The translations under genes and the position numbers were made by a program. A stretch of DNA of 64,000 nucleotides from Pseudogymnoascus verrucosus (taxonomy: Eukaryota), in NCBI GenBank assembly GCA_001662655.1, contig KV460257.1; one strand, written 5' to 3'. Positions 5,540 through 49,678 of this stretch are shown here, piece after piece (within the stretch, counting starts at the first letter, position 1; every line of letters starts with the position of its first letter). The notes below the pieces were generated by a model. The model searched no databases, was not told the origin of the DNA, and saw only the letters and a program-made list of their open reading frames with translations.

Positions 5540-6357
5540 TCATTCAGGTCCTACTACTTGAGCTACTTGATCAGAATCCATCGAGGAATCTATTTCGGAC
5601 GAGACTACATACATGGGTTGCTTCCTAGCTTTAGGGAAGTTGCAGCGTGTGTAACCCTCTGTGAGTCTTCAGATGCCTTTAATGCTCGTTCTTGAAGTAT
5701 GCGCGATGTTATCAGTAGAACCTCCCGTGCTTTTTCATGTTCTTAGATCTGCGTTGCTTCTTCTTCGCAAAGGGCTTTCATCTTAGTCAGCAGTTCTACA
5801 TTCTCTCCTTTAATTCCTATCATCTTGATCTCTAGAGCCTCTCTTATAGCCACTTCTGCATTAAATTTCTCACGCCATTCCTTAGCACTATATTAAAAGG
5901 TAATTATATCTCTAGAAGGATGTTCTCTACTTTTCTCTAGTGCGTCAAAAGTTGCGCTTGTTGTAACGAGTCGCATTTCTAGATCATAGTCTACAGTACC
6001 TTTTCCGAGCATAGCCTTAAAATGAACTCTAACTCTATTACATAGGTCGATATAGGCCCTAGTCGAGTGCTTGCTTAGTTGTTTATTAAACAGTACAGCC
6101 TTTCTAGCTGTTAAAATACTCTATTGATACAAGTCCTCTAGTTTTGTTATGAGCTTGACATTAGTTAGGAGAATTATAAGCCTAAGTTGGGAGTCTAGCT
6201 AAATGACATAATTAGACATAGCTTATTATATACTAAGTACACTCACGAATGTGACTGGCTAACTTCTCCCTGCACTCAGTTCGCCATTTAGCCCTTTCCT
6301 AGTTGCTGGTTTGAGGGCAATTCATTCTGAATCTAATTACATATTTCACTGCCGCTA
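5540..6357 (-). repeat. Inverted copy of 17172-17981 (coiled-coil gene with part of its upstream cassette A)
   Basis: Direct sequence match over about 0.8 kb (e.g. the SFRSYYLSYLIRIHRGIYFGRD-coding stretch occurs in both copies). Many differences are transitions. Confidence 0.92.
5605..6325 (-). pseudogene. RIP-inactivated paralog of the 17205-17915 coiled-coil gene
   Basis: Begins ATG AAT TGC CCT CAA ACC AGC AAC TAG (CAG>TAG). Intron in the same position as in the paralog; another CAA>TAA stop near 5893. Confidence 0.8.
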
Positions 6358-6395
6358 TTCTCTCGCCTTCAATATTTTATATATTAGATATCTCT

Positions 6396-6830
6396 ATGAT
6401 GAATCTAGTCTACCCGCTTATCGCTTTTGCCTGTCTCGCCTCAGGTTCAACTGCAAACCCATTTTACACCAATTCTTCAGCCACCACTCACATTGCAACT
6501 TAACATCTTCAACTGCGAATAAGGCCCAAACGGATACCAATTCTCCAATTGTTCTTAAAAGCTGGTCAGGGTTAGGCTGTAAGCATAATCAATCTAATAC
6601 CCAGATGCATTCATAGCGTCTAATTATCCTCAAGGCACAGGGCAAATGACTGAGTTTGATTTATCAGCACTATATGGGTGGAATGTTACTTGTGACCCTA
6701 GACCATTTTCCAGCTTTAAACTCAGTCGCCCGCTAAAAGAGAGAGAACAGCTTGATTTCAGTCGTATGTCAGAATCAGATGATTGTGGTCGCTTCCTGCA
6801 CTCGTATTAGCCACGAGATTCACTAGGTGA
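6396..6830 (+). pseudogene. Small secreted (effector-like) protein remnant
   Basis: Signal-peptide-like start MMNLVYPLIAFACLASGSTANP. Downstream reads LYGWNVTCDPRPFSSFKLSRPLKEREQLDFS..DCGRFLHSY*. Interrupted by stops or a frameshift. Confidence 0.4.
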
Positions 6831-7112
6831 GACGGGTGTAGGAAGAAATCCACCAAAAGCTAACACAGAACAGCTGGATGTGTTAATCTAAGCTCATTTT
6901 GGTGCGTTCGAATCTGGCTTAACTAGCTAGAGCGCACCGCCAACCGGATGGACCACTAGATGGACCCTGGAACGAATGGATGACTCCAAATGTGGCTCCT
7001 ACAGCACAGAGCGGTAGACATTGGTCGCTCATGGAAAGTCCTAGAAGAGCGTAAAAGAGCGCTACACTATACTTGAATTAAGAATAGAATTTGAACTCAG
7101 CCACATGACCCA

Positions 7113-7198
7113 TACCTATACGTGGTGGCACTTTGTAGCAGAAAATTGAGGGCCGTGTTCACCGGTATCATCAGGTGGTAGCCAGCAGATCGCTGCTC
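7113..7198. repeat. Distal part of upstream cassette A (matches 9655-9736 and, inverted, 17048-17135)
   Basis: GTGGCACTTTG.AGCAGAAA..GGTATCATC.GGTGGT..CAGCAGATCGCTGCTC is shared among the copies. Confidence 0.8.
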
Positions 7199-8307
7199 GT
7201 CTTTGCTCGTTCCCTACCTCTCACCTTGGCCTGTTTGATATGTACTAATTAGTATTTCGTGTCCTCCGACTGGTACAAAAATTGAAACACTATTATTATT
7301 TTTCAGTAACTACTATAAGCGATAATAGCTACTTCCGCACAAAAAACACATATAAACGGAACTCAAGAAACCGGGGCCATTCAAGAGTTTGAGCAAGCAC
7401 AGTGAATTACACACTACAGCTGCCTAAGAACTCTAGACCTCCACCCACTATCTTATGTCTCAACAGACCCGTTTGGGACAGATATCGAACTACCGGAGTA
7501 TAAATACATCAAGTAGGTACACCCACGATGTGATAGCAGCATGCTAGCCGGACCTCAGTAATAACTTCGATAAACTGGGAAGATTACGAACCGACGACGA
7601 GCCAAGGCAGTTGCCGTGGCTTTGGGAGTAACTTGAGCTTGGAGACGTAGGCGTTCCATCTCCTTTTCTAGTGACTCTAAATCACCGGTAGAAGTGTTAG
7701 AGATGTCGTCGTTGCGAGGATCCTGAGGAATAATAGGTCTAGAAGATATGATTCTGAGGTAGTGGAGACGTTGTTTGTCATTGCGAAAGGTAGGCATTTT
7801 ATAGCCTTCGAATGCCATTTAGTTGGCGAGTTGTTTTACTGATGGTATCGGAGGTAGTATATGAGAGGTGAAGTGAAGAAGTCTCGCTAGGGAATTGATG
7901 GCCTCTTATAATGTTAATGGACCCTTGCACAGCGCTAACCCTTTGTAGATGTCTGAAAAGCAATCTGCCTTGAGATGACAACCCATACTCCGTACTCATC
8001 CCGAAACAACCCATCTCCGAAGTTGTAGAGTGCATATTCCAAATTTGCAGTTTCCAGCATGAAATCTAATGCGATGACTCTGGGAGGTTCGGTGCCATTC
8101 TGGAGAGCGGGTTACCTTCGTGCGTTAAAGTGCTTTCATGGGTGCTCTCGTCAGAGATTCGGACAGTCTCCCCTTTCTGTTCACTCTCTAGAATCCGCGA
8201 GCCCATTTGCTTCCCGCCTACGCCCACGCCACTGTGGTTAACCTCATATGGATAATAGACCGAGGACCCCTAGTATCCACACTTCACACCAATTTGGCAA
8301 GGGGACG

Positions 8308-9583
8308 CTAGCTTGGCAAGAGTCTGTGGCTTCCAAGTCCAGCTCGTTGCAGCTCATCATATTTTCTCTTAGCAGAAGTTCCTGTGGAAAGCTGCGAGCA
8401 GTCGTCGCCAAACATCAGCCGCCATCCCTCTTTCCGCCAGAGAAGACAGCCGCAATCAGCCGCTCGGCATAGCGTGGACTGTGGCACACCTAGCATACGG
8501 CAAAGCATGCTTGCCGACAGCGGAGTATTGCTATATAGGCGGTTCAACCCAAGAATTCCAACGTCATGAAAGCCAATAGAACGAATGGATTTCTTGTTGG
8601 TCTCGAAAAAATCCTTGGTGACCTTTTTAGGAGCCACCACTCCACACATGTCAAGCTGATGCAGATCAAATGCGCAGTGAGACAGCAGTTCCAGAACACG
8701 TTCGGAGACCCCACGCACGCGCAGGACCTTGACGTTCTTCAGCAGCTGTCTTAGAGACTCCGATAGAGGGCCTAGATTTGGTTCTTCCCACTATGAATCG
8801 TAGAATGGAAGCTCGAAGTGCAACAAGCTAATGGTATGAATGGCAACGCCTGCCTTCTAGCACGCTGAATGGCGCTCGAAACGACTTGTAGATGGTGTTT
8901 GTAAAACTCATTTTTTATGACCATGTCTGGGATCAACAGCCAGCCGTCATCTTCCAGCACCTCAGAGAAAGACAATCTCACCTCCTGCAACAAAGGAAGT
9001 GCACAGAAGACAGATGATAAAATCAGGTCAGCACCCTCATCGACAATGCTGCGCTGCTCTATACAATGCCGTGGACAGTTTTGTATATGGCCATGTACGA
9101 ATGGAACTCATCTGCTTCATACCCCACATCGTAAAAATCTTCGCTTGATCTACGTGGCTGTCGGGAGTTAGAATATCAGACCTAAAACGGTCAAAATCTA
9201 GTATTTCTACTCGATTTCAGGATTAGTATTAGCTTAAACTCAGCGAGCGACTGGAGATGCATACCAGTCTTTAGCAGTTCAGTGATTTCGTAGGTAAAGG
9301 AGGTAATATAGCCACAAACATTTGACTTCAAGAGGTCGTTGAGTCCTTCAATCCCGGCCTGAGAGAACTCAAACTTCACGTGACGAAAGAGGGTCGACAG
9401 ACAGGCTTGTCTGAGCCGTTTGCTGGCGCGGGAAAGATCTTTGATCTCCCAAACTGGAAGGTGGTCGACAACGGCGTGGAAAATCTCCGTCGGGAGCGTC
9501 TCAAGGTGCGTTAATTCTGGAGTGTCAATGCTCATTATGAAAACGTTGGAGGGCTCCTGGTTGCTGGTTCGAGGGCAATTCAT
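8308..9583 (-). pseudogene. F-box domain protein, frameshifted; chimeric 5' end from cassette A
   Basis: F-box motif LETLPTEIFHAVVDHLPVWEIKDLSRASKRLR. Intron at about 9207-9264. Frameshifts near 9135 and 9065; remaining pieces at 8772-8993 and 8308-8760. Confidence 0.7.
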
Positions 9584-9736
9584 TCTGAATCAAGTACACT
9601 TTTCACTGCCGCTATAGCGCCATGTTATATTTACGTGGCCATGGTGGTTTACTTATGCGTGTGGCACTTTGCAGCAGAAACTGGGGTGTGTGGTCAACAG
9701 CTGGTATCATCGGGTGGTGACAGCAGATCGCTGCTC
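9555..9736 (-). promoter_or_regulatory. Cassette A copy: upstream region plus first 10 codons (MNCPRTSNQE) in front of the F-box gene
   Basis: Matches 17048-17233 (inverted) and, in part, 6297-6357. Homology stops 29 nt into the coding sequence. Promoter role is inferred from position only. Confidence 0.7.
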
Positions 9737-10802
9737 TTTCGAATTGTGAGCCGCCAACTTGTTACCGCTCTCACTCACGTCCGCAACTGAGACGTAATCT
9801 TAGTTTCAGAGTGATGACGATTAACACCACGCCAACGCATCAATGGCTCTCCTCACAACATCGCCAGCCACAATTGGCAACCGCACCTGCAGTTCGAGTC
9901 ACGGTTTAATTTGCACTTAGAGAACGACAATAGTATTGTCTATGTTATGATGCCGTAGGTCCTCCATTTCTCCCCTCCACCTCCACCTTCTCATCCTCAG
10001 TCTTTGCCTTCTTGCTCACATACTTCAGAGCCTCTCTCTTCGTGTCTTGCACATATTCCTCATCATCTTCGCTCTTTCGTTTCCTGCTCACACAGTTTGA
10101 ACGTGGCTCTTTAATATAATGAGCAACCTGAAAATGGGCCCGGGAGTCTGAAGCGTTCTTGAGTGGTACGTGACATGAGGGATGTGGACATTCCTTTTCT
10201 GCGCCAGTCTCAAGGTGCTTGTCAGCATGAGTTGTCTTACAATTGATGATTCGGGAGGAGGCGGACGACTAAAACAAGTGCATGTCTCTGCGTATGGGGC
10301 CAGCATGGCTCTTCCAAAACAGGTTCTAGAAGGAGCGAAATCATTCAGCTATGATTTGTAGACTCAAGAAGTCTGCCAGCTGGAAGAGGTACCAGTTCCT
10401 CTGGGCTGTGTTTTGAAAGTGAAGGCTGAGGGGGAGCCTGTTGCAACCATATCAGATATTGCTACTGATGGACTCATAAAACGTCTTGCGGACTTAGGCC
10501 TCTGATGCAGTGCATCTTGAGTAACGCCGAACAGATAGATAGCTTCGCTTTGAACCAGACCTGTACCCGACGCTCAGTTAGCAGTCGCATGTTTGTCCTT
10601 CTGTAATAGCCATCAGGCCGTAACCGCCCACGCTGTGCAATCCAGATTGTCGGCGCTAAAACATTCATCCCGAGGGAAGAGGAAAGGCGCCTTTTCAGGA
10701 GGGATCCAACACAGCTAAAGCCAGCAATGTGATTATATTCAGTCATCCGATTATGTCCTCTACGTTTTTGATGCTCCGTAAACCTACATGCAATCTCTAT
10801 CT

Positions 10803-13261: not shown

Positions 13262-13309
13262 ATGTGGTGTTTCACTCGCCTGGGCATTTCACTCGCATAT
13301 GGACTACGT
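13262..13309 (+). mobile_element. Probable pogo/Fot1-type terminal inverted repeat remnant
   Basis: TTTCACTCGC repeated with 17-bp period, ending in ..GGACTACGT. Same architecture as the end at 53695-53745. Confidence 0.45.
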
Positions 13310-13498
13310 CACACGAAATATTAAACTATGACATAAAAATACACACCCCTACCTATATCTAGCCCATCAGTTATACTCCGTGCCTCTACTCTTGTATATT
13401 GCTCTATATCCGCTTGTAATAATAGGCATTTACAATTTCCTGTGGTGACTGGGGAGGCACCAATTATAATTGTTGTCATCGTCGACGCAACATATCCG

Positions 13499-16374: not shown

Positions 16375-17047
16375 GCATCTGTATCGAGGTTGTCGGGTCT
16401 GTACCTGTATGTATAGGGAGTCGGTTTTTTATGACGACATCATGACATTTCCCCAAAGCTTTTGAAATGCCGCGTTTCTGCTGCACTTCCGGGTCTGGTC
16501 ACGCGATACTGCTTACTTTTGCCCCTCGCACTATCAGCAAGTATACTAGTCTGTCGCTGTTCAATATCGAAGTTATCAACAGCAGCTCGCATGCTCTTGC
16601 ATTGGCAAGCGAAAGCTGAGAATGTCTACTCTGGAGATCCAATACATGATCTCGAAAGCACCGACAAGCCAGGTACGTAAGCTAAAGCGGCCACACTCCG
16701 GTACTATTACGAATTTGACGCGAGAACTGACACGAGATTGACACGAAAACGATGCGTCGCCTCACCCCTTGCTCTTATTTTCCAGGTAATTCGCCATTTG
16801 TGAGCATACGTCTACACATCAACCAACAAGAGGCTAAATTGCGAGGCAATCTTCATCCACCTGCTGGTCTTGACTGTTTTGAATACCCGGCCAATTAATA
16901 AAGCGCAGATCCTCAGAGAATTAGCAGGTTGTCTGTTGGGTCCCGGGTAGAAGCTAACAGTGTAATATGCTTAGTTTAAGATCACATTGTCCGGCAGACG
17001 TTTCCCATGGAGAAACTCCGCTCAAAAACAACGATGAGTTTGGTAAT

Positions 17048-17233
17048 AGTAGCAAACTGCTGGTTACCACCGGATGATACCGTGATCACAGTGGCCACAC
17101 TTCAATTTTCTGCTGCAAGGTGCCACCACGCGTAAGTAAACCACTACGACCACGCAAATATAACATGGTGCTATAGCAGCAGTGAAATATGTAATTAGTT
17201 TACAATGAACTGCCCTCGAACCAGCAACCAGGA
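17048..17233 (+). promoter_or_regulatory. Cassette A, complete copy, upstream of and overlapping the start of the coiled-coil gene
   Basis: Matches 9555-9736, 6297-6357 and 7113-7198. AATATAA at about 17157, ATG at 17205. Confidence 0.65.
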
Positions 17234-17915
17234 AAGGGCCAAATGGCGAACTGAATGCAGGGAGAAGTTAGCCAATCACATTCGTAAGTGTACTCAAGCC
17301 ATATCTAATTGTGTCATATGACCAGACTCCCAACTTAGGCTTACTATTCTCCTAACTAATGTCAAGCTCATAACAAAACTAGAGGACCTGTATCAATGGA
17401 GTTATTTGACAGCTAGAAAGGCTGCATTGTTCAATAAACAACTAAGCAAGCACTCGATAGGGGCCTATATCGACCTGTGTAACGGAGTAGGAGTACATTT
17501 TAAGGCTGTGCTAGGAGAAGGCGCCGCAGACTACGAACAGGAAAAGCAACTCGTCACAACAAGCATAGGTTTTGACGCACTAGAGAAGAGTAGAGAACAC
17601 CCTTCTAGCGATGCAATTTCCTTTCAACTAAGCGCTAAAGAATGGCGTGAGAGATTTAACGCAGAAGTGGCTATAAGAGAGGCTCTTAAGATCGAGATGA
17701 TGGGTATTAAAGGAGAGAATGGGGAACTGCTAAGTGAGATGAAAGCCCTTCGCGAAGAAGAAGCAATGCTGATCCAAGAACTTAAAAAAGCACGGGAGGT
17801 TCTGCTGATAACATCGCGCATACTTCAAGAACGAGCATTAAAGGCATCTGAAGACTCGCAGAAGATTACACACGCCACAACTTCCCTAAAGCTGGGAAGA
17901 AATCCATGTATTTAG
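17205..17915 (+). CDS. Uncharacterised protein with C-terminal coiled coil, about 222 aa
   Basis: Exon 1 17205-17283 (MNCPRTSNQERAKWRTECREKLANHI), a 42-nt GTAAGT..CTAAT..CAG intron, then an open exon 2 at 17326-17915. Heptad-rich C-terminus. A paralog lies at 5605-6325. Confidence 0.65.
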
Positions 17916-19257
17916 TCTCGCCCGAAATAGATTCCTCGATGGATTCTAATCAAGTAGCTCAAGTAGTAGGACCTAAATGATACCGTTCTTGGCGCTTCAC
18001 GAACGAATTTGACTTGCATATTAGATCGATAGAGGTACCGCAGGAGGCGATATATTTGAGTCGGATCACACCGATAATACAAGCGCTGTAGTGCAAACTT
18101 TAGCAAAAAAACCATGACGAGAGCCAACAGGACCAGCAGACAGACTTACAAGGACCTAAGAGCAAACAGAAAGATCAGAGCAATTATCTTCTATGAGTTC
18201 AGACTCAAGTCTTTCAGCTCCCAAAACGTAGTGATGACAACATCCCGAACCTAGCAGCTGAGTAGACGAACGCCTAAGAGTTAGTGCGCCTTACATGCAA
18301 TTCAGATCCTAGACCAATGTGAGACTATAGCAGATCACCCACGGTGGCGCTCGGAGTGAAGGGGAAAGAACAAGGTTGCCAACGTCAGCCGTGAGGCGCC
18401 GCCAGAAGGGACGGCGAGGGACAAGAAGGGGGAGAGCCAGGAGAAACGGTGAAGGGGGTTGGTGTATGAGGTGATGGAAGAAAGTAGAGGTGCTGATGGT
18501 GATGGTAGTGTTAGTGGTGGTAGCAAGGTGGCAAAGATAAGGAGAAAGGAGGAAGCGTGAGCTGTGAGTGGGCCGTCCAGCCATATTGAGTGGGGATGTA
18601 GGCCTGGCTGCCCCATAACACCGACTTTGAGCGCCACCGTGAGTCTGGGCGCGGCTTTTTCAGGTCTTAACGTCTAGTCTTTCAGTGCGATAGAGGATAG
18701 TGTGGCGTGTCTATCATACGGCAGATGATATAGTACTGTAGTCTATCGTGTGGAATGAAGCTTTACAATTGATGATGCAAGGATCGCGTCATCCTCGGCT
18801 TAAACTCGAATCGTAGAACCTAGTCCATACCAGCATCTCCTGTTAAGCCATGCTAATGCCTTGGCTTCTTACCTTACAACAACTTCTACTTAAGAAAGCC
18901 CTTCTTCGACAGTCGGTTTTGACGGAAACAATTCCCTTCAAGTCCCCTTGTTGAAGTCACTCAAAGCAGCTCAGAATGGGAGAAAAGTGCTGGTCCAAGT
19001 CGTCTGCCTCGACTGTGAGATGTATATAGGACCTGGCTGAGCCACGCTTACATACTTGTTAGCCTCCATTGCTCTCAACTCTCCGTGTGTTGCTTAGTTG
19101 ATAGGGGTTCAGGTATCGAGGACATTGGCTAGGAATTTGCGAAGTTTCACAGATCACAACGAGAAAATCGAAAAGACAGAAAGAACATTTGGTCCACCTA
19201 GAAACAGCCACATCGCTTTCATCGCCGCGGTGCTCCACGGTCCTACAGGACGAACTC

Positions 19258-28290: not shown

Positions 28291-28334
28291 AATAATATCT
28301 CTTCACAACTAATTAAATGTTCGTTTCGTTTATG

Positions 28335-35872: not shown

Positions 35873-36037
35873 TCAAGGGTTTGTGCTATGCGCAGCTTCT
35901 CGCGGGGGCGCTTCAGGGAATGAGGGAAATGAATAGTTGAGCTCGGCGCGACGACAGCCTTCTCCACAGTAGGCTTTGCCATCTGTCTGCCTGTCACAAC
36001 CGAGGCAGACGTCTTGTGAAAAATTCGTTTCTCCCAT
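35873..36037 (-). pseudogene. Ecl1-family (life-span regulator) N-terminal Cys motif; short ORF or fragment
   Basis: FSQDVCLGCDRQTDGKAYCGEGCRRAE matches the CxxCDR..YCxxxCR motif. Confidence 0.55.
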
Positions 36038-36483
36038 TATGAGCTGTTTTGAGTGATTTCGACAAAGGGTGAGAAAAGGAATTGTTTGGTCCAAACGACC
36101 GTTGCGGAATGTTTTTATAAAGTAGAAGTTGTTGTTACGTGGTCAAGTACAGTTTCGTTAGGAAGCCTACGTACTGGCATGGCTTCAGTAGTAAACGAGG
36201 AGATGCTAGTATGGACTGTGCCCTGCGACTTCAAGTGATATTGCCGTGATGGGATGGTGGCAAAATGATATTGCCACGCCAAGGATGACATAATCCCATC
36301 ATCATCAATTGCAAGGCTTCATTTCAAACGGTACACATAGTACTGTAGCCGCTACCGTACTGTATCCTTTAGAATACATATGGGCCAATTCAAAGAAGCG
36401 GCGACCCATGTATAATCATATTACGTCATTTAATAGGAACATGCAAAGATGGCGTTTCCAGCAGTGCAACGAGGCTTCTGCAC

Positions 36484-41064: not shown

Positions 41065-43578
41065 TCACTTTAAACGCCAATCGGGTGGCTGGCCCCCCAG
41101 TATCAGGTTGCCTTGTGCACTGAGAGATGCACCATCGCAGCTAATCCCAATGCTGTTATAAGTTTCTCTCGTATAGACAATCTCATCTTCCGCGACTCCG
41201 AGCTCGTCCCTTGGAATCCATAGGACTAGAGGATCAGAAGTAAGAGTTTCGTCTTGACAAGGATCTTGAAATATCTTTGTTGCAACGCGCATATCTTTGC
41301 CTTTACTTCCGGTTTGAGCCGTTAGCTGCTTGAAAATGGGTCGCGAGGATAGCCAATGTAATCCACTTCTATGATCTAACGAAAAATGAAACAGTGCAGT
41401 AAAGGCCATAGTAACAATCATAATTATCGCTTGTGTAGTGCATGTGGCATTGCCGTTAGCATCGCGGAGGAGAAAGAATAGGCCAGCAAGGCATAATTCC
41501 ATAAAGTATATGCCTGTCATTAGCTAACGAATTGCTGTTAGGTAAAACAGGCCGGTAGCACTAAGATCCAAATCAGAGAGCTTTAGAGGGTAGAACCGGT
41601 ATAGAACCCAAAGCGCCCTAAAGTAGATCATGCTAAAGACTAAAATAAGAGGAGCGATGACTAAATAGATAAGTCCTATGCAGTTAGTATTATCTCAACA
41701 GTAGCTAATACAGAAAATATACCTATACACGCTATATTTGTGAAGACTAGGACAAAGGTACCCCATTTTTAAAGTCCTAGGCTCTGTCTTCTCATCTACT
41801 TTTACCTTAGAGATTTGTCAAACAAAGGAGAGAGAACAAACATGCTTATAAGTCTAGTAATCTACATAAGAGTGAAGGCGAAGGTCATAAAAGTGTGTAT
41901 CATAATATACGAGAAGAAATAATTAGACGCCTTAGGCAAATTCTAGGCAAGCAGCGTCAGTATTGCTTCAACTATATCTAGCAACTGTCCAATGATGGTG
42001 GTGATACCAGCCGACAACGAGACGGCAAGGAATACCTACACAAAAAGGAAAGAGAAGTAGTAGATCTAAACGTAGTTCTCTACCCTCTAACAAGAATGTA
42101 GTCCTTGCATATTTGCAAGAAGACGTAGTACGCTTAGAACCATAGCAGTGATGAGAGATAGTATTGCAAGGGGTAAGACTCCTTAAATAGTCGCTAGGGC
42201 CTAACTTAGGAGCGATTCTAGCCGTCTTAGCGAAGGGACAACATAAGTTAGGTATCCAATCTAAGAAAGTGAGCCTGCGATTGCTACTAGAAGTGCGAAG
42301 CCAAGCGTAAGCGAAGCAGCAAGGGAGTACACGAAAGCTGTCTAAATAATCTGTTACCACCAGCTAATCGAGACATTTGACCATATAATATCTGCAGCAG
42401 TTGTCCCTTGTTTAAACGTCTAGGACGGAGGGGCTTGCGCTTTAATCGCAAGAGCTATAGATAGCGTTGAGAGATCTTTGTTGAAACGAACAAAGGCCGA
42501 ATTCACCTTAGGGAACTCATCGAAATGCTGTTGGCTCCGCTGTATCTCAGTGTTATACCGAGCAACTTCTATACAGAAGTAATAGATTGTATTGACCTTA
42601 GCCCTAATAAACGGCAGAGAAGGCAGCCATGAAAAGGCTAGAAGTCGTGTTGATAGACAATCCTTTCAACATAGATATTTCATCCATAGCTCTAAGGAAT
42701 GGGGGTAACTTTCGTCCTTTCCATATAGCGTCTAATGATTTTTTAGACAATTTGCTTTTTATATAAGACGCGTCTCAGCAACCTCTAGATTGCTTATAAA
42801 CGCATCTCGTTGTAGTAGCTTGCAATGTAAGCTACTATAGTCTCGATTTATCAGTATACTATTAATGCCACTAGAAATGCTATGGAAGTGCCGCTAAATT
42901 TCATCAACAGAGAGCTGCTGCCCCTTTGATCTCAAAACGATGAGGAGAGATGATTCTTTAATGTTCTTTAATGCTTAAAAGATGCTTCGAAGTCTAGAAT
43001 AATCCTAGAGCTCCTGTTGAAGGGTATAGCAGACCAAAACAACTACTAATATTACAAGTAGAAGATGCGCCCAGTACTTGTCTGTGTGCGAGAGTCTTAA
43101 CGTTTAAAATACTTAGCAGATCTAACCCCTTTACACCTCTAGACGCGTTCTTGCCATAAGCGACATTTAATAGAACGAGGATAGGCATTATAATCAAGCA
43201 CAATATAATGAAAATCCTCATAATGGTATGCAAATAGCGGTTAAAGAGGTAGTTTTTAAACCTAGATGCGTGTTTTATATAGGGGTCTAGTACTAGCGAA
43301 AGAAGCATTTGTAGGGACATCAGACGTAGTTTCCATTTCGAATTAAAGACTCTATAGGCTCGCCTGTAGCTTTATTAATTAGCATTTGGTTCCTTACTAA
43401 ATAGGACCACTACGTACTAGTAGTCTGGGAATTTAAGTTAAAGTAGTATGTAAGCGGTTATACCAAACCTAAAGATTGCTCTAGAGGTTGTGAGAGATGC
43501 CAAAAAGGTGCGTAGCGATTTGCCATGATTCTTATGTGCCTTGCCTACAGCATTGTCAAGCATATCATTAACGCTCAT
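41065..43578 (-). pseudogene. CSC1/OSCA (DUF221/RSN1) channel, heavily RIP-mutated
   Basis: Starts MSVNDMLDNAVGKAHKNHGKSLRTFLASL. Also YLFNRYL..GVKGLDLLS, FPKVNSAFVRFN, LMTGIYFMELCLAGLFFL, LWIPRDELGVAEDEI. Many TAA/TAG stops. Confidence 0.85.
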
Positions 43579-43765
43579 AACTTGTATATTTAAGTAAAGA
43601 TGAAGATGAAGGAATAGAACTAGAGATTGTCCCTATATATAACTAATACTTTCGACATACGCGGCTAGCGTCAACATCTTGATGCTGATGGCCCTCCACT
43701 AATAATGCGATAATCTAATGATACTAATGAACCACCACCTAATAATGGCCGCCTTGAGCTGGAGT
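43545..43765 (-). promoter_or_regulatory. Cassette B1: upstream region plus first 11 codons of the CSC1 gene
   Basis: Matches 49455-49678 and, with a deletion of about 39 bp that removes the ATG, 45265-45416. Confidence 0.7.
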
Positions 43766-44153
43766 CATGCCATACACACAATTCTCTAGAAGAACCGCCG
43801 GATGCACATTCATTTCTAGATGATAGTAAAGTACCCAGCTCGCCCCACCACGCAACCTAATGACTAATTTACTTCCTATAACCCTCTCTAGGGTGATGCT
43901 TTAGATTTGGACACAACTCCTGTTAGAACTCGGCTAGGCACGTAGCGCAATATAAACTGCGAGATCATAATGCTGGTAGAGACAAGGAATCAATTCAAGA
44001 GCATTTATATATTATGCTATCTCTGCTGCTACATTCAAGTCCCTCCGTGCTTCCCAGAGAACCTCTTTCATCCGAGAATATAGGCCTCTATCTTCCTTCT
44101 CCATCTCCCGCCGTTTAGAGATACCAGCTTTCGTAATCGATTTAGGAATTTAG

Positions 44154-44993
44154 TTAAAAAAGTGCCTCTTCCACAGACACTTCTTCCAGAGGCTGCTCTC
44201 GCACAGGCTGAGCCACTTCCTCTTCCCTAAGCAGACTTTCGCAATCGTTATGACGCTTTGATTCGGTGCGTAACATGGTTCCTAGTATGGGATACGGATA
44301 TGGGCACATACCCATACTTAGACTTCTAGCATCGTGTATATCTCTGTAGTCGTGGAAGCGACATAGCCCACCATAGCCGATCATGGACTGCGCTTAGGCA
44401 GTCTGTACTTCTCGGAAATAATCCCAGCCAAGTTCAGCATGCTTTTCAAAGACTTTTTTCCATTTTAAGGGGTCAGTGTGTCGTCTGATCAAACTCAGGC
44501 TCACAGAGCATAGATCGCGGATAATTGAGCGAGATGGTACATTATTATAAACCGTAGAGACGTCGCGTGGCTTAAGCTCCCACCTGCCATTGAAAAATCC
44601 AGCGCGGAGAATATCTGAAGTTTGGTTCTTTAAATGACATATTATATATAGCTCGGCGAATATAGCTAGATCAAGAACAGATTCGAGAGATTCAACATTT
44701 ACGCTCGGCTCGAGGACATGTATCCAAATGAAAAAGTCTTCAAAAGTCGATATTTTCACCTCTAGCAGTTTGATGATCCACGTCTGAGATTCCTTGAATT
44801 CAGATTGACACATCCTTCCTAATGGCGGGGAATACTGCATTAACAGAGCTTCTGGAATAGAAAAGCTCTTTTCGGTAGGTCCTACGAGGATTGTAATGCG
44901 ATCACTCTGCATTGCCCTATTTAATAATTTAGAAGCATTCATATGTAAGCTATAGAATACTGACGTAATGTACGATGATATACTTTTTCCCAT
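44154..44993 (-). pseudogene. BTB/POZ domain protein with a premature stop
   Basis: ITILVGPTEKSFSIPEALL..SP..EFKES..TFEDFFIWI..LAIFAELY..LKN. TAA at 44394 is followed in frame by GGLCRFHDY. A likely 48-nt in-frame intron lies near the start. Confidence 0.75.
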
Positions 44994-45416
44994 AGTGGCG
45001 GTAGATATAAAAATAGGGATAGAGACAAGAAAAGCAATACAGCGTGGTGTAGTAGTATTTATAGAAGTCCTAGGCCTCCAGCCATGCGCAATAAACAATA
45101 TTTTCTTGAGTTGACGATTGGTGGCCTCAAAATAATGACCCCAATGATACCAATGATCCCCCTCAATATTGAGATCCGAATGATACTGATGATCCCCCTT
45201 AATAATGAGATCCACATCGACGCCTTTCATTTTAGCCTCAGGCACCAATCTCCGAAAATCGAAACTGCAGCATTGTAAAGATGAAGGCATGGAATCTGAA
45301 GATTGGCCCTAACATATAACCAATACTTCGACTTTCGCGGCTAGCGTTGATTCTGATGACCCTCCACCGAATAATCCAATCATCCGATGATACATGAACA
45401 CCACCCAATAATGGAT
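44979..45416 (-). repeat. Composite cassette B1(deleted)+B2 upstream of the BTB gene; direct repeat of 49166-49678
   Basis: Near-identical over about 430 bp, including CTATAAATA on the minus strand, an internal 36-bp duplication and the palindrome CTCAATATTGAG. Confidence 0.92.
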
Positions 45417-45656
45417 GTTTCTAAGGTGGTGAAAGCATCGTTGCGGATTGTGTGGGATGACAAGCCACCTAGGCAGGTCAAGTGTATGGCTGACTTTTCG
45501 GACCAGTCTTAGGTACCGTGGAATCAGGAGTTTGAATCTAAGAGTTAAATGTAATATGTAATGTAGGACTAGACTATATACTGACTCTCATCTCCATGAC
45601 TTAACAGACGCATAGAGAAGAAGATGACAAAGTGCCTAACAGTCCTGATTTACTTA

Positions 45657-47261
45657 CTAATACTCAGTCAGCGGTAACTTGCCAAATTTGACTAATCCCC
45701 ACTTCGCCGATAAATCGCAAAGATACGACCTGCGTTTCCCTTCGCGTTCTTGTCCGACGTAATGTTGGATCATCCATAGCAATAAGTCGTTGCAAGTTCT
45801 AGTCTTCATCCTCCATAATGCCTTTGCAATATGATATCCCTTCGCGAAGACCTCCCCCCACCTCTGTTTCCACATGGACTGCTCCCATTCCGAGTCAAAA
45901 TGGCTGATCATGTTCTTTAGCTCACCCCCTAAGTCAGCAAGTTCTTCGTATGAGACTAGCCCTTAGTGATGCGCGGCCGAGTCCCACATTGCTTAGAGCA
46001 TGACTACTACCTCATTGTGGCTCATCGTCAGTTGTACACGTTACAAATGTATCGCAATGCTAAAGGCCTCTAACCACAAGCCTATTTTGATCGCTATATC
46101 CCACATAGTCTTGAGCATTTGCACTACACCATCACAGTCGTTCTCAACTATGTTCCATGCCACAGCGAAGGCACCTTCCCATCAGCCTTTGCTATATTCC
46201 TCATGCCATGCCTTTTTTAACATGGGAATTGTCTGTTTGCCTTGTAGTGGTACTATTTCCTTCGTTGCTGTGGTAGCACTGTCCTAGTCGTATTTCTAGG
46301 CGGCCTCATCCCAGAGGGTTTGTAGTATGTGTACTACTTCGCTGTTATGGTTTCTGATTTTGAGTTATTTAGCAAGGTGTTTAGCTAGATTGAGGGCAAC
46401 CTGCCACTAGTTGTGGAAGGCTTACAGAGCAATATAATCCCACATGTTTTAAAGCGTGCTCATAAATTCCTCGTTAACATTTGAGTTATCTCTAACGGTC
46501 CCAAGTACACTTACTACTCTGTTAACCTCGCCCCACTAACCCTCTAAAATAGCGTAGCTGCAAATGATTTCCAGAATATGTACCACCGGTCGAGTATTTG
46601 CATTCGGCCTTATGAGTTTAGATGCCTAGCATAAAGCGTCTTGCCATTCATGCTCCCGTACGGCAAGATCTAGCGTCGCTTTAACCACTTCGGCTAGTTC
46701 GTCACTGTTTCTTCTTAGATAGATCTGTAATTGCTTAGACACAAAGTAGACATCTTTCCACTAGCATGTAAAGACACTCTAGCCAACTATGTCTCGCCAT
46801 CCGACAGCTACTCGGTCTCGAACCAATTGTTGCATCATGATTCCAAATTCGTCTTGTAGGAAATCTGCTGCAGTAAATGTAGCTGCCTAAGCGTCCTATA
46901 ACCTATCGACAAGAGCCCTTTAACAAAACCTTCGGAGTGGCTCCACTACATCGTAATGCTTGTTATGTAACTCTTAATCAAGTTTAACTAAGAAATCAAA
47001 GGCGTCTTTCCACCTCCTTGCAGTGCATAGGCCCTTCTAATAACTTTCAATAAGTTTTAAAGTAGATATTAGATGCTCGTTTATGCGACTAGTAATAGTG
47101 TTGCAAATGGTGTCGATATCCAATGTATGCTGACCCTGTCTACCTTCCCTAGTATAAGCGTAAAGGACTAAAGGCCACCTTTTGCTCTTAAATAACGTTT
47201 GAAATTGTTTAGAGAGCAAGGATACATACGAGAGCGTTCGTTGGTCTGAAATATTGAACAT
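45657..47261 (-). pseudogene. Intronless Trp-patterned helical-repeat protein of about 534 codons, RIP-inactivated
   Basis: ORF pieces 47261-47037 and 45911-45657 are in the same frame. The frame between them shows repeats such as VVQMLKTMWDIA..WLEAFSIA, with more than ten TAA/TAG/TGA stops. Confidence 0.65.
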
Positions 47262-48202
47262 GATCTAGAAAAGCAATTCAGTAGGCAGATTAGACAATTG
47301 AGTAGAACAAGATGAGGAGGATTCTTTCATGTTAACAGAAGTCGGCTGCTTGTGTCAGGTTACTTCGTGATCTTCAATTTCAATAGGGTTCTCTATTCAT
47401 TTTAGCAAGACTTCCGAAGTGAATACTAGGCATTCTTACCTTAACAGCCATTAGCCGGATTAGGGTGAGGGTAATTGTCACCTTAACCATATATTTTGAA
47501 GTTGAATGATGCCATAGTCTGACTGCTTTGAGGCATAAGACAAGGTTTTGGTACCAATGGCTTAATGTTGGTATCCCGTGAGCTGGAAGTAGCAGGCAAT
47601 TAGGGTCGGTATGTGGATTCGTATATTTGGTGAAATTAGCCGATTTCTCCCATTTCTAAAAACGCGAGGAGGGGGGCCTACATATATAGGGAAGAGAGGT
47701 CTACCCACCAGAGTGCCTGGCGCCCCTCCTTATGCTTTCTCCACTCTTGCGATCCGCCATTCAGGTAGCAAGATCACATTTACTAACCATCCGAGCCCAA
47801 ACCGTTACATGGTGCTCCTTAAGCGAAATTAACCCTTCATTATTTTGGAAATGATAGCTCTTACGATGTTTGCCAATAGAGGGGATTAAAGATCATAATG
47901 GATTAGCTCGATAGAAGATAAGTTCACCGAAACCTTAATATAGCTAATTAAAAATGCCTGCCAAAGGTGATCTGAGATTAGGAACCCATAATAATGTTTG
48001 AGAATAACTAGTGTATGTAAGTCTAATTTATTTGCACGGTCCGTTAATAACTCCTACATATGTCCCAATCCCATGTACAAGTTCAACCTCGAATAATTTT
48101 CACGATTATGCATCTATAACAATATGGAAGATTACGTTCCATCGGACATGAGAATACAAAATAAACCAGTCAAGCTCATTGTTCGCATATACTAGATCTT
48201 CT

Positions 48203-49180
48203 CTAATGAAACTCTTTATCGAATTTTACCTTGGACATATCAAGACGAGACAAGATACAAAGAGGCGTTAGGATCTTTGCGCTGCTCGAATAGTGGGCGA
48301 TGAAGACGTGCTAGTCAGCATTAGCAGGAATTAGAAGCATAGATTGCAAAACTAACATCGGAGAGTTCATAAGGAGCGGCCCAAGGAATTGCCTCTACAA
48401 AACTGATTGCCTCAGCCGACCACTTCCCTAATTAAGAGTTCAAAGTCTCAACCGTCTCACGCATCAATTGTAACACGAGAACCCTCAAAGAATCCATGTC
48501 TGCCGAGCTGTGGTCTTTAGGAGAAGTCACATGATCTGCAAGTATTCAGTCAATGAAATTGCATCGGTTTAAGAAGCTTACTAAGCTTGACCTCGCCGTT
48601 TATAGACAACTGAATATTTCGTGTAGATATACGGACGTGACTAAGTTTCCTTAACTAGATAAAACTTATGCCGGCCAAAACCTACTACGTTAGTAGGATA
48701 GGAGGAAGACAGTGCTCGACTTACTTGGCTGATAATATATGCTATCTCAGTCTCCGAGAAACAAATGGATTTTTGCAGTAGGTCTTCGAGGGAAAGCCCT
48801 ACATACTCAACAATAGCAGAGTATTCCCCTTTAAACAAGTATGTCTCGTAGATATTAACAAAGTTTTTATGCCGTATTAAGATGTATGGAGATTCGTTTA
48901 GAGGTGCAATGTTAAAGTCTCTAATCTCTCGCACTGCCGTTCTATCATTGCAGAGGACTAGCCTCATCCCTAAGCTAAGCTTTAAAAACGGCTCGTATAA
49001 GTCCTACGGATTGCAAGCAAATGATGGAATCTCTGTCAGTCCTGCGGACCAGAATTCTTTCTCGCAGGAGGGAGCATGTCCTAGAGACAATAGGCGAGTA
49101 GGACGAGCAATAGGACACTCTTCAAGACAATCTGCAATGGGCAATCTAGTCATCCCTACTGTCTTTGTGCTTTCTCCCAT
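48203..49180 (-). pseudogene. Divergent kinase-like protein, disrupted
   Basis: LIRHKNFVNIYETYLF..IVEYVGLSLEDLL..FSETEIAYIISQV, NIQLSINGEVKL, WSAEAISFV. Contains introns and in-frame stops (e.g. 49004). Confidence 0.7.
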
Positions 49181-49678
49181 AGTGGCAGTAAATAAAGAAT
49201 TAGAGATAAAGACAAGAAAAGCAATACAGCGTGGCGTAGTAGTATTTATAGAAGTCCTAGGCCTCCAGCCATGCGCAATAAACAATATTTTCTTGAGTTA
49301 ACGATTGGTGGCCTCAAAACAATGACCCCAATGATACCAATGATGCCCCTCAATATTGAGATCCGAATGATACTAATAATCCCCCTCGATAATGAGATCC
49401 ACATCGAATGAGATCCACGCCCTTCATTTTAGCCTCAGGCACCAATCTCCGAAACTGCAGCATTGTCAAGCATATCATTAATGCTCATAATTTGTATATT
49501 CAAATAAAGATGAAGGCATGGAATCTAAAGATTGGCCCTAACATATAACCAGTGATTTCGACTTTCGCGGCTCGCGTCAATTAGATGGCCTCAAGATCTT
49601 GATGCTAATGATCCGATGATCCGATGATCCGATGATACCAATGGACACCACCCAATAATAGCTGTCTTGAGCTGGAGT
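49166..49678 (-). repeat. Composite cassette B1+B2 upstream of the kinase-like gene
   Basis: Matches 44979-45416 and 43545-43765. Contains (GATCCGAT)x3 near 49610. Confidence 0.92.

What the first reader, a model, noticed from the sequence alone, without database searches (positions are those of the whole stretch)
5540..49678. Reusable 'upstream region + first codons' cassettes placed in front of unrelated genes (three independent cases)
Seen: three different upstream sequences each recur, and each time homology ends just inside the coding region. Cassette A ends 29 nt in (coiled-coil gene vs F-box gene). B1 ends 34 nt in (CSC1 gene vs a short dead-end frame at 49488). B2 ends about 15 nt in (BTB gene vs kinase-like gene). 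I saw no TIRs, LTRs or target-site duplications on them. Inference: three breakpoints within 35 nt of a start codon look non-random. This suggests promoter capture or cassette shuffling that puts diverse accessory genes under one expression programme, loosely like a gene-cassette array. Duplication-deletion followed by selection for expressed chimeras is the simpler alternative.
Basis: partly seen in the sequence, partly recalled or inferred. Interest (0 to 1): 0.8.

Follow-up and report, generated by a model that had tools for sequence, protein, structure and literature searches.

The report
Copied gene-front fragments in fungal repeats
Short copies of the front end of one gene (promoter plus the first few codons) sit in front of other genes in this fungal chromosome piece, but they are old, local leftovers of repeated, mutation-riddled DNA, not a working cassette system.

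Summary
The repeats are real at the stated coordinates, and I found a fourth case. The window is Pseudogymnoascus DNA; gene A2 matches P. verrucosus VE01_10827.

- **Cassette A** is the 5' 189 nt of a ~0.94-kb genus-specific multi-copy unit. It encodes an orphan coiled-coil protein (96 homologues, 15-16 in single strains).
- **A copy before the F-box gene:** it is truncated at +29 and also present, diverged, in a related fungus. There the cassette ATG is absent and the F-box gene uses its own conserved ATG 48 nt downstream.
- **B1 and B2** are not independent. They form one ~500-bp block lying in a ~10-kb segment that looks multi-copy in two sibling species.
- **B2** is native to the kinase-like gene. 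In this genome it replaced the promoter and first ~32 codons of a BTB gene.
- **Downstream genes:** all three B-region genes carry premature stops with a directional C>T/G>A (RIP-like) signature. The CSC1-like copy has 20 stops.
- **Fourth case:** an Ecl1-like 5' end (+44) is copied upstream of an RGS gene.

Four of five partial-gene fragments end 11-45 nt after an ATG. That clustering looks non-random and remains unexplained. I found no evidence for a shared expression programme or a cassette-array mechanism. Best reading: partial duplications and chimeric fusions in repeat-rich, RIP-affected DNA.

The parts
17045..17985 (+). Repeat unit A2. It holds cassette A (17045-17233: promoter region, ATG 17205, first 29 nt of coding sequence) and intact gene A (ATG 17205, stop 17913-17915, two exons), which encodes an orphan coiled-coil protein.
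   Evidence: Exon 2 is identical to P0002 (P. verrucosus VE01_10827). The 5' edge is shared by 4-5 copies with different flanks.
9555..9738 (-). Cassette A3: a copy of unit A truncated at +29 (ATG 9583) and fused in frame to the F-box gene leader.
   Evidence: It is 90.4% identical to the L001 cassette in front of gene A, but only 78.0% identical to the L001 F-box upstream region.
9194..9535 (-). F-box gene exon 1, starting at the conserved ATG 9535. The gene body continues to about 8340.
   Evidence: Pfam F-box-like E=1.1e-5, 25.5 bits against a cutoff of 24.3. The ATG is conserved in L001, where the cassette ATG reads ATAAAT. The gene is 91% identical to L001 over 1243 nt.
7113..7198 (-). 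Cassette A4: the distal part of the second unit-A copy.
   Evidence: 78-81% identical to A2, A3 and L001.
6359..7112 (.). A 755-nt segment that replaces 34 nt of the cassette in the A4/A1 copy. It is absent from L001.
   Evidence: No Pfam hit. TpA/ApT is 1.04-1.16.
5535..6358 (-). A1: pseudogene copy of gene A (ATG 6325, TAG at codon 9).
   Evidence: It is 86.7% identical to A2 over 824 nt, with 71 transitions and 22 transversions, and C>T 25 against T>C 5.
43545..43765 (-). B1 copy Z: the upstream region plus the first 34 nt (ATG 43578) of the CSC1-like gene.
41679..43578 (-). CSC1-like pseudogene (RSN1_TM, PHM7_cyt, RSN1_7TM; the PHM7_ext part extends to about 41068).
   Evidence: Pfam. tblastn against P0125 gave 82.6% over 472 aa with 20 in-frame stops. 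61 of the 82 differences are C>T/G>A-only towards the window, against 7 in the reverse direction.
44983..45418 (-). Locus Y: B1 remnant (lacking 39 nt that include the ATG) plus B2 (TATAAATA at 45063, ATG 44993).
44157..44993 (-). BTB gene with a replaced 5' end (MGKS-ISSYIT|intron) and a premature TAA at 44394-44396.
   Evidence: It is 95.8% identical to P0098, and 9 of the 11 differences are C>T/G>A-only towards the window.
49455..49678 (-). B1 copy X (ATG 49488, dead-end frame), lying directly upstream of B2.
49170..49454 (-). B2 copy X: TATAAATA at 49250, a CT-rich leader and ATG 49180. This is the native front of the kinase-like gene.
   Evidence: P0123 from another organism reads through the same B2 plus kinase-like arrangement.
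48587..49180 (-). Kinase-like pseudogene with 2 in-frame stops, for example TGG>TAG near 49005.
   Evidence: Pfam Pkinase E=2.3e-5, which is below the family cutoff. tblastn against P0123.
35994..36359 (-). Donor of the fourth case: the Ecl1-like gene's upstream region plus its first 44 nt (ATG 36037).
   Evidence: (Pfam Ecl1 E=6.6e-6).
18717..19018 (+). Copy of the Ecl1-like 5' end (ATG 18976, a 16-codon dead-end ORF). It ends 240 nt upstream of the RGS gene ATG at 19258.
   Evidence: 76-78% identity.
17993..18318 (.). Internal coding fragment of a PTH11-like (Fung_rhodopsin) gene, copied from or related to 34448-34111. It serves as a counter-example, because both of its breakpoints lie inside a coding sequence.
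   Evidence: 72% over 344 nt; Pfam on 33923-34297 and 34428-34637.

Best explanation
Each 'cassette' is the front end of a donor gene: 160-490 nt of upstream DNA, the leader, and the first 4-15 codons. It was copied as a short DNA fragment of about 190-500 bp and joined into the 5' region of another nearby gene.

This happened in a stretch of a Pseudogymnoascus chromosome that is a patchwork of genus-specific repeats. That stretch was later hit by repeat-induced point mutation (RIP)-like C>T/G>A damage.

What each cassette is:
- Cassette A is the 5' end of a dispersed ~0.94-kb repeat unit that carries its own promoter and a small orphan gene. The copy in front of the F-box gene is a 3'-truncated unit copy.
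- B2 is the native promoter and start of a kinase-like gene. One copy, dragging a B1 remnant with it, overwrote the promoter and first ~32 codons of a BTB gene.
- B1 (CSC1-like gene front) and the Ecl1-like front are truncated copies. They lie further upstream of other genes and encode only dead-end mini-ORFs.

Shown:
- the duplications and their exact ends;
- donor and recipient polarity for B2>BTB;
- the multi-copy nature of unit A;
- the age of the events, which are shared with relatives;
- the pseudogene state of four of the genes involved.

Inferred:
- the joining mechanism, which I take to be end-joining or template-switch repair of breaks in gene 5' regions;
- that the copied promoters drive, or once drove, the recipient genes.

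The clustering of ends just after the ATG is real, but its cause is not established.
For: Organism and repeat status:
- All named hits among the 96 homologues of gene A are Pseudogymnoascus. There are 15 in strain VKM F-4520 and 16 in F-4518, many on short contigs.
- 19 of 96 start with the MNCPRTSNQ-type peptide and 7 carry it internally. 9 translate cassette-A distal DNA behind at least two different upstream contexts.
- The unit's 5' edge is the same in 4-5 copies that have different flanks.

A related fungus (L001, found) has the same order: cassette A, F-box gene, cassette A plus gene A.
- Its F-box upstream copy lacks the cassette ATG (ATAAAT) and has two extra blocks.
- Gene A exon 1 is conserved there, with 3 synonymous changes in the T-E-C codons.

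B2>BTB:
- BTB orthologues in 4 Pseudogymnoascus proteins, plus Stipitochalara and Rhynchosporium, share a long native N-terminus. It is missing in the window exactly where B2 homology ends.
- P0123 shows B2 followed by the kinase-like gene in another organism.

Decay:
- CSC1-like copy: 20 stops; 61 of 82 differences fit C>T/G>A towards the window against 7 in reverse.
- BTB: 9 of 11 against 0, with 1 stop.
- Kinase-like: 14 of 43 against 8, with 2 stops.
- A1: TAG at codon 9, and C>T 25 against T>C 5.
- TpA/ApT is 1.0-1.24 and GC is 40-44% over 40-44, 46-49 and 50-53 kb.
- In one search table 3, 30 of the 40 listed differences are window A/T against read G/C transitions. 5 are the opposite transitions and 5 are transversions.

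Repeat status of the B region:
- 457 contigs of run X3 and 570 of X4 lie on 38-54 kb, against 42 (X1) and 48 (X2).
- Summed depth is 77-624 over 40.7-50 kb, against about 23-33 for the flanking single contigs.

A RID homologue is listed for P. destructans in PMC6709928 (passage read).
Against: - The near-ATG clustering (4 of 5 fragments) is not predicted by random duplication-deletion. It needs either a break-site bias or selection, and neither was tested.
- I had no whole genome and no RNA data. Genome-wide copy numbers of the cassettes, promoter activity and transcript starts are therefore unknown.
- Unit A could not be classed as any transposon type. I saw no TIRs, TSDs or Helitron ends, and no transposase or reverse-transcriptase domain appeared in the B region, even when stops were read as X.
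- Summed contig depth is not a copy number by the tool's own caveat.
- The overall X3 change counts are nearly symmetric: A>G plus T>C is 576, against C>T plus G>A at 518. The directional signal therefore rests on the best-supported rows and on the protein comparisons.
- Locus Y with the BTB gene, and locus X, have non-RIP dinucleotide indices (44-46 kb and 49-50 kb).
- The native status of the B1 ATG for the CSC1-like gene is inferred from the reading frame only. Pfam did not recognise that N-terminus.
Confidence: 0.6

Rival explanations
1. A break-site bias produces the pattern. Promoter-centred DNA fragments are released or copied at recombination or replication-stress hotspots in gene 5' regions. 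Candidate routes are SPO11 double cuts in meiosis, or template switching at stalled forks. The fragments are then inserted at other such hotspots. Both donor and recipient junctions would then fall in promoters, leaders or first exons. This is a mutational signature and not a functional system, and it is compatible with the best explanation.
For: - Donor ends lie at +11, +29, +34 and +44, and the upstream ends lie 160-490 nt before the ATG.
- All recipient sites are also gene 5' regions:
  - the F-box leader, about 20 nt before its ATG;
  - BTB codon ~32;
  - 285 nt before the kinase-like ATG;
  - 240 nt before the RGS ATG.
- The 17985-19250 spacer is a patchwork of three unrelated copied fragments in both orientations.
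- In mouse, SPO11 double-cut fragments of 15-349 bp are inserted at other hotspots with 0-2 bp microhomology, and tandem duplications also arise (bioRxiv 10.1101/2020.06.23.168138; abstract and section 12 read).
Against: - There is no hotspot or nucleosome map for this fungus.
- That fungal hotspots sit in promoters is recalled from yeast work and was not tested here.
- The fragments (189-496 nt) are at or above the top of the size range reported in mouse.
- Only five fragments were examined, and they were noticed after the fact.
- Cassette A3 starts exactly at the 5' edge of a dispersed repeat unit. That fits a truncated unit copy better than a random double cut.
Confidence: 0.2
2. This is functional promoter capture under selection. 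The copied fronts were kept because they place the F-box, BTB, kinase-like and RGS genes under the donor genes' regulation, giving a co-regulated accessory set.
For: - There are two in-frame fusions with no intervening stop: the F-box 16-codon extension and BTB MGKS-ISSYIT.
- B2 keeps a TATA box and a CT-rich leader and is 93% identical between X and Y, while the adjoining B1 part is less conserved.
- The cassette A / F-box arrangement persists in a related species.
Against: - The cassette ATG is not conserved in the related species' F-box gene.
- The BTB, kinase-like and CSC1-like genes carry premature stops.
- B1 and the Ecl1 copy give dead-end ORFs upstream of another promoter.
- Each cassette fronts only one foreign gene in the window.
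- F-box exon 1 shows 4 synonymous against 11 non-synonymous codon differences to L001, so there is no sign of strong constraint.
Confidence: 0.12
3. The cassettes are fragments of a conventional transposable element, such as a MITE, solo LTR or Helitron, that happens to carry promoter-like sequence.
For: - Unit A is dispersed and multi-copy, with a sharp 5' edge.
- Copies sit next to ankyrin, TPR_10 and GH15 genes in other genomes.
- The B region looks multi-copy in runs X3 and X4.
Against: - There are no terminal inverted or long terminal repeats and no target-site duplications.
- The unit ends are not 5'-TC...CTRR-3'.
- No transposase or reverse-transcriptase domain was found.
- Each cassette is demonstrably the native front of a cellular-type gene: gene A exon 1 is conserved with synonymous changes, the Ecl1 profile starts at residue 8, and B2 fronts the kinase-like gene in P0123.
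Confidence: 0.08

Closest known systems
Partial and chimeric gene duplicates that recruit a foreign promoter and first exon (described in Drosophila and C. elegans duplicate surveys; recalled, no paper read here)
   Same: - The donor keeps its full gene.
- The copy holds only the promoter and the first codons.
- The recipient gains a new start in frame, as in the F-box and BTB cases.
- Copies are local and few.
   Different: - The fragments here are very short.
- Four of five end within 45 nt of the ATG.
- Two of the four do not fuse to a coding sequence at all.
- Several of the genes involved are already pseudogenes.
RIP-degraded repeats of Pezizomycotina (Neurospora-type repeat-induced point mutation; recalled). 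A RID homologue is listed for P. destructans in PMC6709928 (passage read).
   Same: - There is a directional excess of C>T/G>A changes.
- Stops arise mainly from Gln and Trp codons.
- TpA/ApT is raised and GC is lowered over the duplicated DNA.
   Different: - The signature is mild and patchy; loci X and Y are spared.
- RIP has not, to my knowledge, been demonstrated experimentally in this genus. My search found 14 papers holding both terms, none of which appeared from titles and abstracts to be on this subject.
Insertion of SPO11 double-cut fragments at other hotspots and hotspot tandem duplications (Lukaszewicz et al., bioRxiv 10.1101/2020.06.23.168138; abstract and section 12 read)
   Same: - Short fragments are copied from one break-prone site into another.
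- Either orientation occurs.
- There is little microhomology: about 1 nt at the single junction I could reconstruct.
   Different: - That work was in mouse, with PRDM9-type hotspots and fragments of 15-349 bp, seen as de novo events.
- Here the events are fixed and ancient, the fragments are 189-496 nt, and no hotspot data exist.
Integron gene-cassette arrays
   Same: Only the loose idea of modular reuse of DNA segments.
   Different: - Integron cassettes are promoter-less genes captured behind one promoter by an integrase at attI/attC sites.
- Here the repeated module is the promoter itself.
- There are no recombination-site repeats at the edges, and no integrase was seen.
MITEs in promoters of fungal effector genes (mimp elements of Fusarium; recalled) and Helitron or Pack-MULE capture of promoters and first exons (recalled)
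   Same: A repeated sequence lies upstream of unrelated genes. Unit A is dispersed and multi-copy.
   Different: - There are no TIRs, TSDs or Helitron termini.
- Homology runs through a genuine start codon of a donor gene.

Membership tests
Partial / chimeric gene duplication | The donor locus retains the complete gene, while the copy holds only its 5' part. | tested here: met
   - A2 is intact against A3, which holds 189 nt.
- The Ecl1-like gene is intact against the 18717-19018 copy.
- B2 plus the kinase-like gene is seen in P0123, against B2 alone at BTB.
Partial / chimeric gene duplication | Orthologues of the recipient gene in relatives have a different, native 5' end. | tested here: met
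   - BTB: 4 Pseudogymnoascus proteins and 2 proteins from other genera share MA(N/K)KKAKK...TEPDLR before ISSYIT.
- F-box: L001 has its own TATA-bearing leader and lacks the cassette ATG.
Repeat-induced point mutation (RIP) footprint | A directional excess of C>T/G>A transitions in duplicated DNA, with nonsense codons. | tested here: met
   - CSC1-like: 61 of 82 against 7.
- BTB: 9 of 11 against 0.
- 20, 1 and 2 stops in the three genes.
- A1: C>T 25 against T>C 5, of which 13 are at CpA.
Repeat-induced point mutation (RIP) footprint | Dinucleotide indices: TpA/ApT above about 0.89 and (CpA+TpG)/(ApC+GpT) below about 1.03 (thresholds recalled). | tested here: inconclusive
   TpA/ApT is 1.0-1.24, but the second index is 1.02-1.24 over 40-53 kb. 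The bins at 44-46 kb and 49-50 kb are normal.
Transposable element (MITE / solo LTR / Helitron) | Defined termini (TIR, LTR or TC...CTRR with a hairpin) and target-site duplication. | tested here: not met
   Searches showed none at the ends of unit A, at the 755-nt replacement, or at the joints seen in X3 and X4.
Transposable element (MITE / solo LTR / Helitron) | Many dispersed copies in a genome. | tested here: met
   - Unit A: 15-16 annotated homologues in single strains, next to different genes.
- B region: 457 and 570 contigs laid in X3 and X4, against 42 and 48 in X1 and X2. This is depth-based, so it is indicative only.
Integron-like cassette array | A site-specific recombinase plus conserved recombination sites at the cassette borders. 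| tested here: not met
   - No recombinase domain appeared in the Pfam scans of ORFs across the window.
- The cassette borders share no common motif; cross-alignments of A, B1, B2 and E give z below 1.5, except for a low-complexity B1/B2 similarity.
SPO11 double-cut fragment insertion | Donor and recipient sites coincide with meiotic break hotspots. | not testable with these tools
   No hotspot or nucleosome data exist for this organism. The only observation is that all junctions lie in gene 5' regions.

The most novel reading that the evidence does not exclude
The near-ATG ends could be the fixed footprint of a specific mutational process in this fungal lineage. Promoter-centred fragments, running from about -160 to -490 through +11 to +45, would be excised or copied at break hotspots in gene 5' regions and re-inserted at other gene 5' regions. 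The process would repeatedly create promoter swaps, upstream mini-ORFs and N-terminally chimeric genes. If a genome-wide peak of duplication breakpoints just downstream of start codons exists in Pseudogymnoascus, it would be natural-history evidence for hotspot double-cut or template-switch insertion shaping gene regulation in fungi.
Probability: 0.15. Interest if true: 0.7.

Novelty: new member of a known kind. Interest (0 to 1): 0.3.

Why it matters
As it stands, this is an ordinary picture: partial duplications and chimeric gene fronts inside repeat-rich, RIP-scarred fungal DNA. Three points are useful mainly for annotation.

- **F-box start codon:** the conserved start is 9535, not 9583.
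- **Pseudogenes:** the BTB, kinase-like and CSC1-like genes are broken or truncated.
- **Gene A:** it belongs to a large genus-specific orphan family whose gene models are often merged with neighbouring genes.

The open point is the clustering of fragment ends 11-45 nt after start codons. If it holds genome-wide, it would point to a break-site bias that rewires promoters. That is cheaply testable on the roughly 20 public genomes of the genus.

Tried and rejected
- **Whole genome:** none is held for this window, so no genome-wide copy count was possible.
- **Earlier notes of this scan:** nothing by place or by either cassette sequence.
- **RNA evidence:** no RNA holder is listed among the 21 runs. 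Nothing can therefore be said on expression or start sites.
- **Metagenome scan with a 22-nt B2 TATA-core pattern:** 0 hits.
- **Searching the record behind L001:** not held, so only 5057 nt of that 35.5-kb contig were seen.
- **Transposase or reverse-transcriptase search:** I scanned 45.3-48.3 kb and 50.7-53.7 kb in six frames with stops read as X. There were 0 Pfam families in 12 translations.
- **Pfam on the putative CSC1-like N-terminus:** no hit.
- **ESM Atlas for the gene A product:** best score 0.78, so no lead.
- **AlphaFold2 of the gene A product from a 24-sequence alignment:** mean pLDDT 67.8, one confident long helix (residues 111-198) and the rest below 50. I did not run a fold search on a single helix.
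- **Similarity between B2 and the Ecl1 cassette:** they share ATGGGAGAAA at the start codon. The local score of 20 is within the range of shuffles (maximum 32), so I treat it as chance.
- **Splice-site explanation of the breakpoints:** considered because the ends read CAG|, CAG|GA and AAAG|. Rejected because the reading frames run through the junctions and the downstream exons belong to unrelated families.
- **Simple tandem-duplication model for [cassette]-insert-[cassette+gene]:** rejected because no second copy of the insert lies upstream.
- **Long target-site duplication model for A3/A4:** judged less likely, because A3 begins exactly at the repeat unit's own 5' edge.
- **Literature on RIP or repeats in the genus:** searches returned 14 and 39 papers (14 and 15 of them listed). 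None of the listed ones appeared from titles and abstracts to be about this. PMC12222008 (passages read) describes only repeat-masking methods.

Full report
**What the window is.** ORF and Pfam scans show an intron-bearing filamentous-ascomycete chromosome segment.
- Families found include several Fung_rhodopsin (PTH11-type) receptor genes, RGS, NADPH-oxidase-like, a TPR_10 repeat protein, F-box, BTB and CSC1/RSN1.
- At 54-64 kb there is a secondary-metabolite-like cluster.
- No tRNA genes were found.
- A search with the exon-2 ORF of the 'coiled-coil gene' returned 96 proteins, and every named one is from Pseudogymnoascus. The best (P0002, P. verrucosus VE01_10827) is identical over exon 2.
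- No whole genome is held for the window.

**Check of the observation.**
- Cassette A: 17045-17233(+) against 9738-9555(-), with ATGs at 17205 and 9583 and homology ending at +29.
- B1: 49678-49455(-) against 43765-43545(-), with ATGs at 49488 and 43578 and homology ending at +34.
- B2: 49454-49170(-) against 45257-44983(-). A TATAAATA box lies 70 nt upstream of the ATGs at 49180 and 44993, and homology ends at +11.

The three-way alignment shows that B1 and B2 are contiguous in loci X and Y. They were duplicated as one block. Y has lost 39 nt that include the B1 ATG. The 'three cases' are therefore not independent.

Cassette A has further copies. 7113-7198 and 5535-6358 together form a second whole copy of 17045-17985, in which 755 nt replace 34 nt.

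**A fourth case and a counter-example.** The self-BLAST also lists 18717-19018(+) against 36359-35994(-). One search shows this is the upstream ~320 nt plus the first 44 nt of an Ecl1-like gene (ATG 36037; Pfam Ecl1 E=6.6e-6 with the profile starting at residue 8).
- The copy lies upstream of an RGS gene (ATG 19258).
- There it leaves only a 16-codon dead-end ORF.

Next to it, 17993-18318 is an internal coding fragment related to the PTH11-like gene at 34111-34448. So of the five partial-gene fragments in the window, four end 11-45 nt after a start codon and one does not. A more sensitive self-comparison found nothing else except a 46-nt pair.

**Cassette A is the 5' end of a dispersed repeat unit.**
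- The gene A family is strongly multi-copy within single genomes: 15 hits from VKM F-4520, 16 from F-4518 and 7 from F-4519. Many are on short contigs or partial.
- 19 of 96 start with the MNCPRTSNQ-type peptide and 7 carry it internally.
- 9 are merged gene models that translate the distal cassette DNA (..QRSAGHHPVIPAVD..). Upstream of that point, at least two different contexts occur.
- In the DNA, four to five copies (A2, A3, A4 and two in L001) share the same 5' edge with unrelated flanks. The unit ends about 70 nt after the stop codon.
- In other genomes, copies abut ankyrin, TPR_10 and GH15 genes.
- The product is an orphan. It has no Pfam family and no Atlas lead. The AlphaFold2 model is essentially one long confident helix.
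- I could not class the unit as a transposon. There are no TIRs, TSDs or Helitron ends.

**Comparative evidence for cassette A.** A degenerate pattern built from positions conserved in three cassette copies hit one metagenome-collection contig (L001). This is the syntenic locus of a related fungus.
- Its F-box gene is 91% identical over 1243 nt.
- An uninterrupted cassette A plus gene A follows directly.
- Gene A exon 1 is conserved there with three synonymous changes, so the cassette ATG is a real start for gene A.
- Upstream of the L001 F-box gene, the distal cassette is present. The proximal part differs: ATAAAT stands in place of the ATG, there are two extra blocks, and a TATA-like motif is present.
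- Homology to the window resumes about 20 nt before an ATG conserved in both species (window 9535).

So the breakpoint lies in the F-box leader. In the window, the cassette ATG adds an in-frame 16-codon extension that the relative lacks.

The window's A3 is 90.4% identical to the L001 gene-A cassette but only 78.0% identical to the L001 F-box upstream copy. This suggests an old copy that was later overwritten by gene conversion from the neighbouring unit in one lineage (inference).

A merged gene model from another species (P0016) reads from the 3' end of the upstream GPCR gene through cassette A straight into gene A. That species therefore either never had the F-box segment between the two cassette copies, or lost it. 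The direction is unresolved.

**Cassette B2 replaced the front of a BTB gene.** Homologues of the BTB ORF show a native N-terminus, MA(N/K)KKAKK...TEPDLR-ISSYIT. It is followed by an intron and then AMQSDRITILVG. It occurs in four Pseudogymnoascus proteins, and in similar form in Stipitochalara and Rhynchosporium.
- The window reads MGKS-ISSYIT.
- Similarity to the orthologues starts exactly where B2 homology stops.
- P0123, from another organism, is a read-through model of B2 followed by the kinase-like gene.

B2 is therefore native to the kinase-like gene, and the BTB gene is the recipient.

**B1 is inferred to be the native front of the CSC1-like gene.** The frame from ATG 43578 runs into a transmembrane-like segment. 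Pfam did not recognise that short N-terminus.

**The B-region genes are decayed.** tblastn and substitution typing gave the following.

| Gene | Compared with | Differences / aligned aa | C>T/G>A-only towards window | Reverse | In-frame stops |
|---|---|---|---|---|---|
| CSC1-like | P0125 | 82 / 472 | 61 | 7 | 20 (14 Gln, 3 Trp, 2 Arg, 1 Leu) |
| BTB | P0098 | 11 / 262 | 9 | 0 | 1 premature TAA |
| Kinase-like | P0123 | 43 / 251 | 14 | 8 | 2 |

- The A1 copy has TAG at codon 9 and C>T 25 against T>C 5.
- GC falls to 40-44% and TpA/ApT rises to 1.0-1.24 over most of 40-53 kb. Loci X and Y are spared.
- A RID homologue is listed for P. destructans (PMC6709928, passage read).

I read this as a mild RIP-type footprint.

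**The B region in relatives.** No RNA run was listed. Contigs of four DNA runs were laid on 38-54 kb at 80% likeness or more.
- Run X2 (71% of the sampled words) has long contigs with few differences (6-34 per 2.7-4.1 kb) and the same contig breaks at the repeats.
- Runs X3 and X4 gave 457 and 570 contigs, against 42 and 48 for X1 and X2.
- Their summed depths are 77-624 across about 40.7-50 kb, against about 23-33 for single contigs in the flanks. This is consistent with a multi-copy segment, although depth is not a copy number.
- Structural variants were seen. For example, an X4 joint runs from 43884 to 45749 and skips locus Y and the BTB gene.
- The Y-type 7-nt insertion at the B1/B2 junction is present in X3.
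- In X1, total depth at that junction equals about three contigs, and one contig diverges beyond 49470. This suggests a third B2 copy elsewhere in the source genome.
- Of the 40 best-supported differences listed, 30 are window A/T against read G/C transitions.

**Interpretation.** The cassettes are short copies of gene fronts embedded in old, repeat-rich, partly RIP-mutated DNA.
- Two copies made in-frame chimeric starts.
- Two copies are inert-looking upstream relics.
- Nothing indicates an organised cassette system: there is no recombinase, no shared border motif, no many-gene reuse, and there are several dead recipients.

What remains notable is that four of five fragment ends, and all recipient junctions, lie in gene 5' regions. 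As a rough estimate, about 20-25 genes in 64 kb give about a 1.5% chance per end of falling within 45 nt after a start codon. That makes pure chance unlikely, even allowing for after-the-fact selection (inference).

One candidate cause is a break-site bias in promoters. Mouse SPO11 double-cut fragments of 15-349 bp are known to insert at other hotspots (bioRxiv 10.1101/2020.06.23.168138; abstract and section 12 read). The other candidate is survival bias for copies that do not disrupt the recipient gene. Neither could be tested here.

Noticed in passing
window 45450-47300 (-): With stops read as X, one frame gives a long quasi-ORF. It has an F-box-like start (..LSNLPTELLF.IMFNISDQRTL..) followed by W/A-rich helical repeats and many in-frame stops. 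This is another decayed gene, lying between the kinase-like and BTB loci. No Pfam hit.
   Followed up: partly
window 36507-37310 (+): Five or more tandem 126-nt (42-aa) TPR_10 repeats at 77-88% identity, typical of the repeat arm of fungal NLR-like proteins. One gene-A family model in another species (P0074) is merged with such repeats.
   Followed up: no
window 54278-63875: A secondary-metabolite-like cluster: an AMP-binding enzyme in three ORF pieces, an AATase-like gene, a cytochrome P450, a TRI-like acyltransferase and a 2OG-Fe(II)/WelO5-like oxygenase.
   Followed up: no
window 13502-15907 (-): A single 802-aa open frame combines the C-terminal two-thirds of a Fung_rhodopsin (PTH11-type) domain with a full MFS_1 transporter domain. 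This may be a real fusion or two adjacent genes without an intervening stop.
   Followed up: no
window 49180 (-) and 36037 (-) / 18976 (+): Cassette B2 and the Ecl1-like cassette both start their coding part with ATGGGAGAAA. By local-alignment score against shuffles this is not significant.
   Followed up: yes
window 49300-49640 and 43640-43740 (-): B1 and B2 both contain imperfect runs of a GGATCAT(C/T)GG-like motif, and the B1-B2 local alignment has z of about 7. This could be a shared binding-site cluster or an older duplication.
   Followed up: partly
window 7986-8325 versus L001 1585-1673: The window has about 340 nt between the F-box gene body and the next conserved block that the related fungus lacks. 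It is an indel of unknown polarity.
   Followed up: no
window 12428-12473 and 26997-27042: An isolated 46-nt inverted pair at 83% identity, with no further homology around it.
   Followed up: no
window 43963-44388: In run X1, an extra 408-nt contig matches this stretch (downstream of the BTB gene) with a 126-nt skip, and the bin depth is about three times single copy. This points to a further copy elsewhere in the source genome.
   Followed up: no
window 697-1563 (+): An ice-binding-like protein gene (PF11999, E=4.8e-47), which fits a cold-adapted soil or cave fungus.
   Followed up: no
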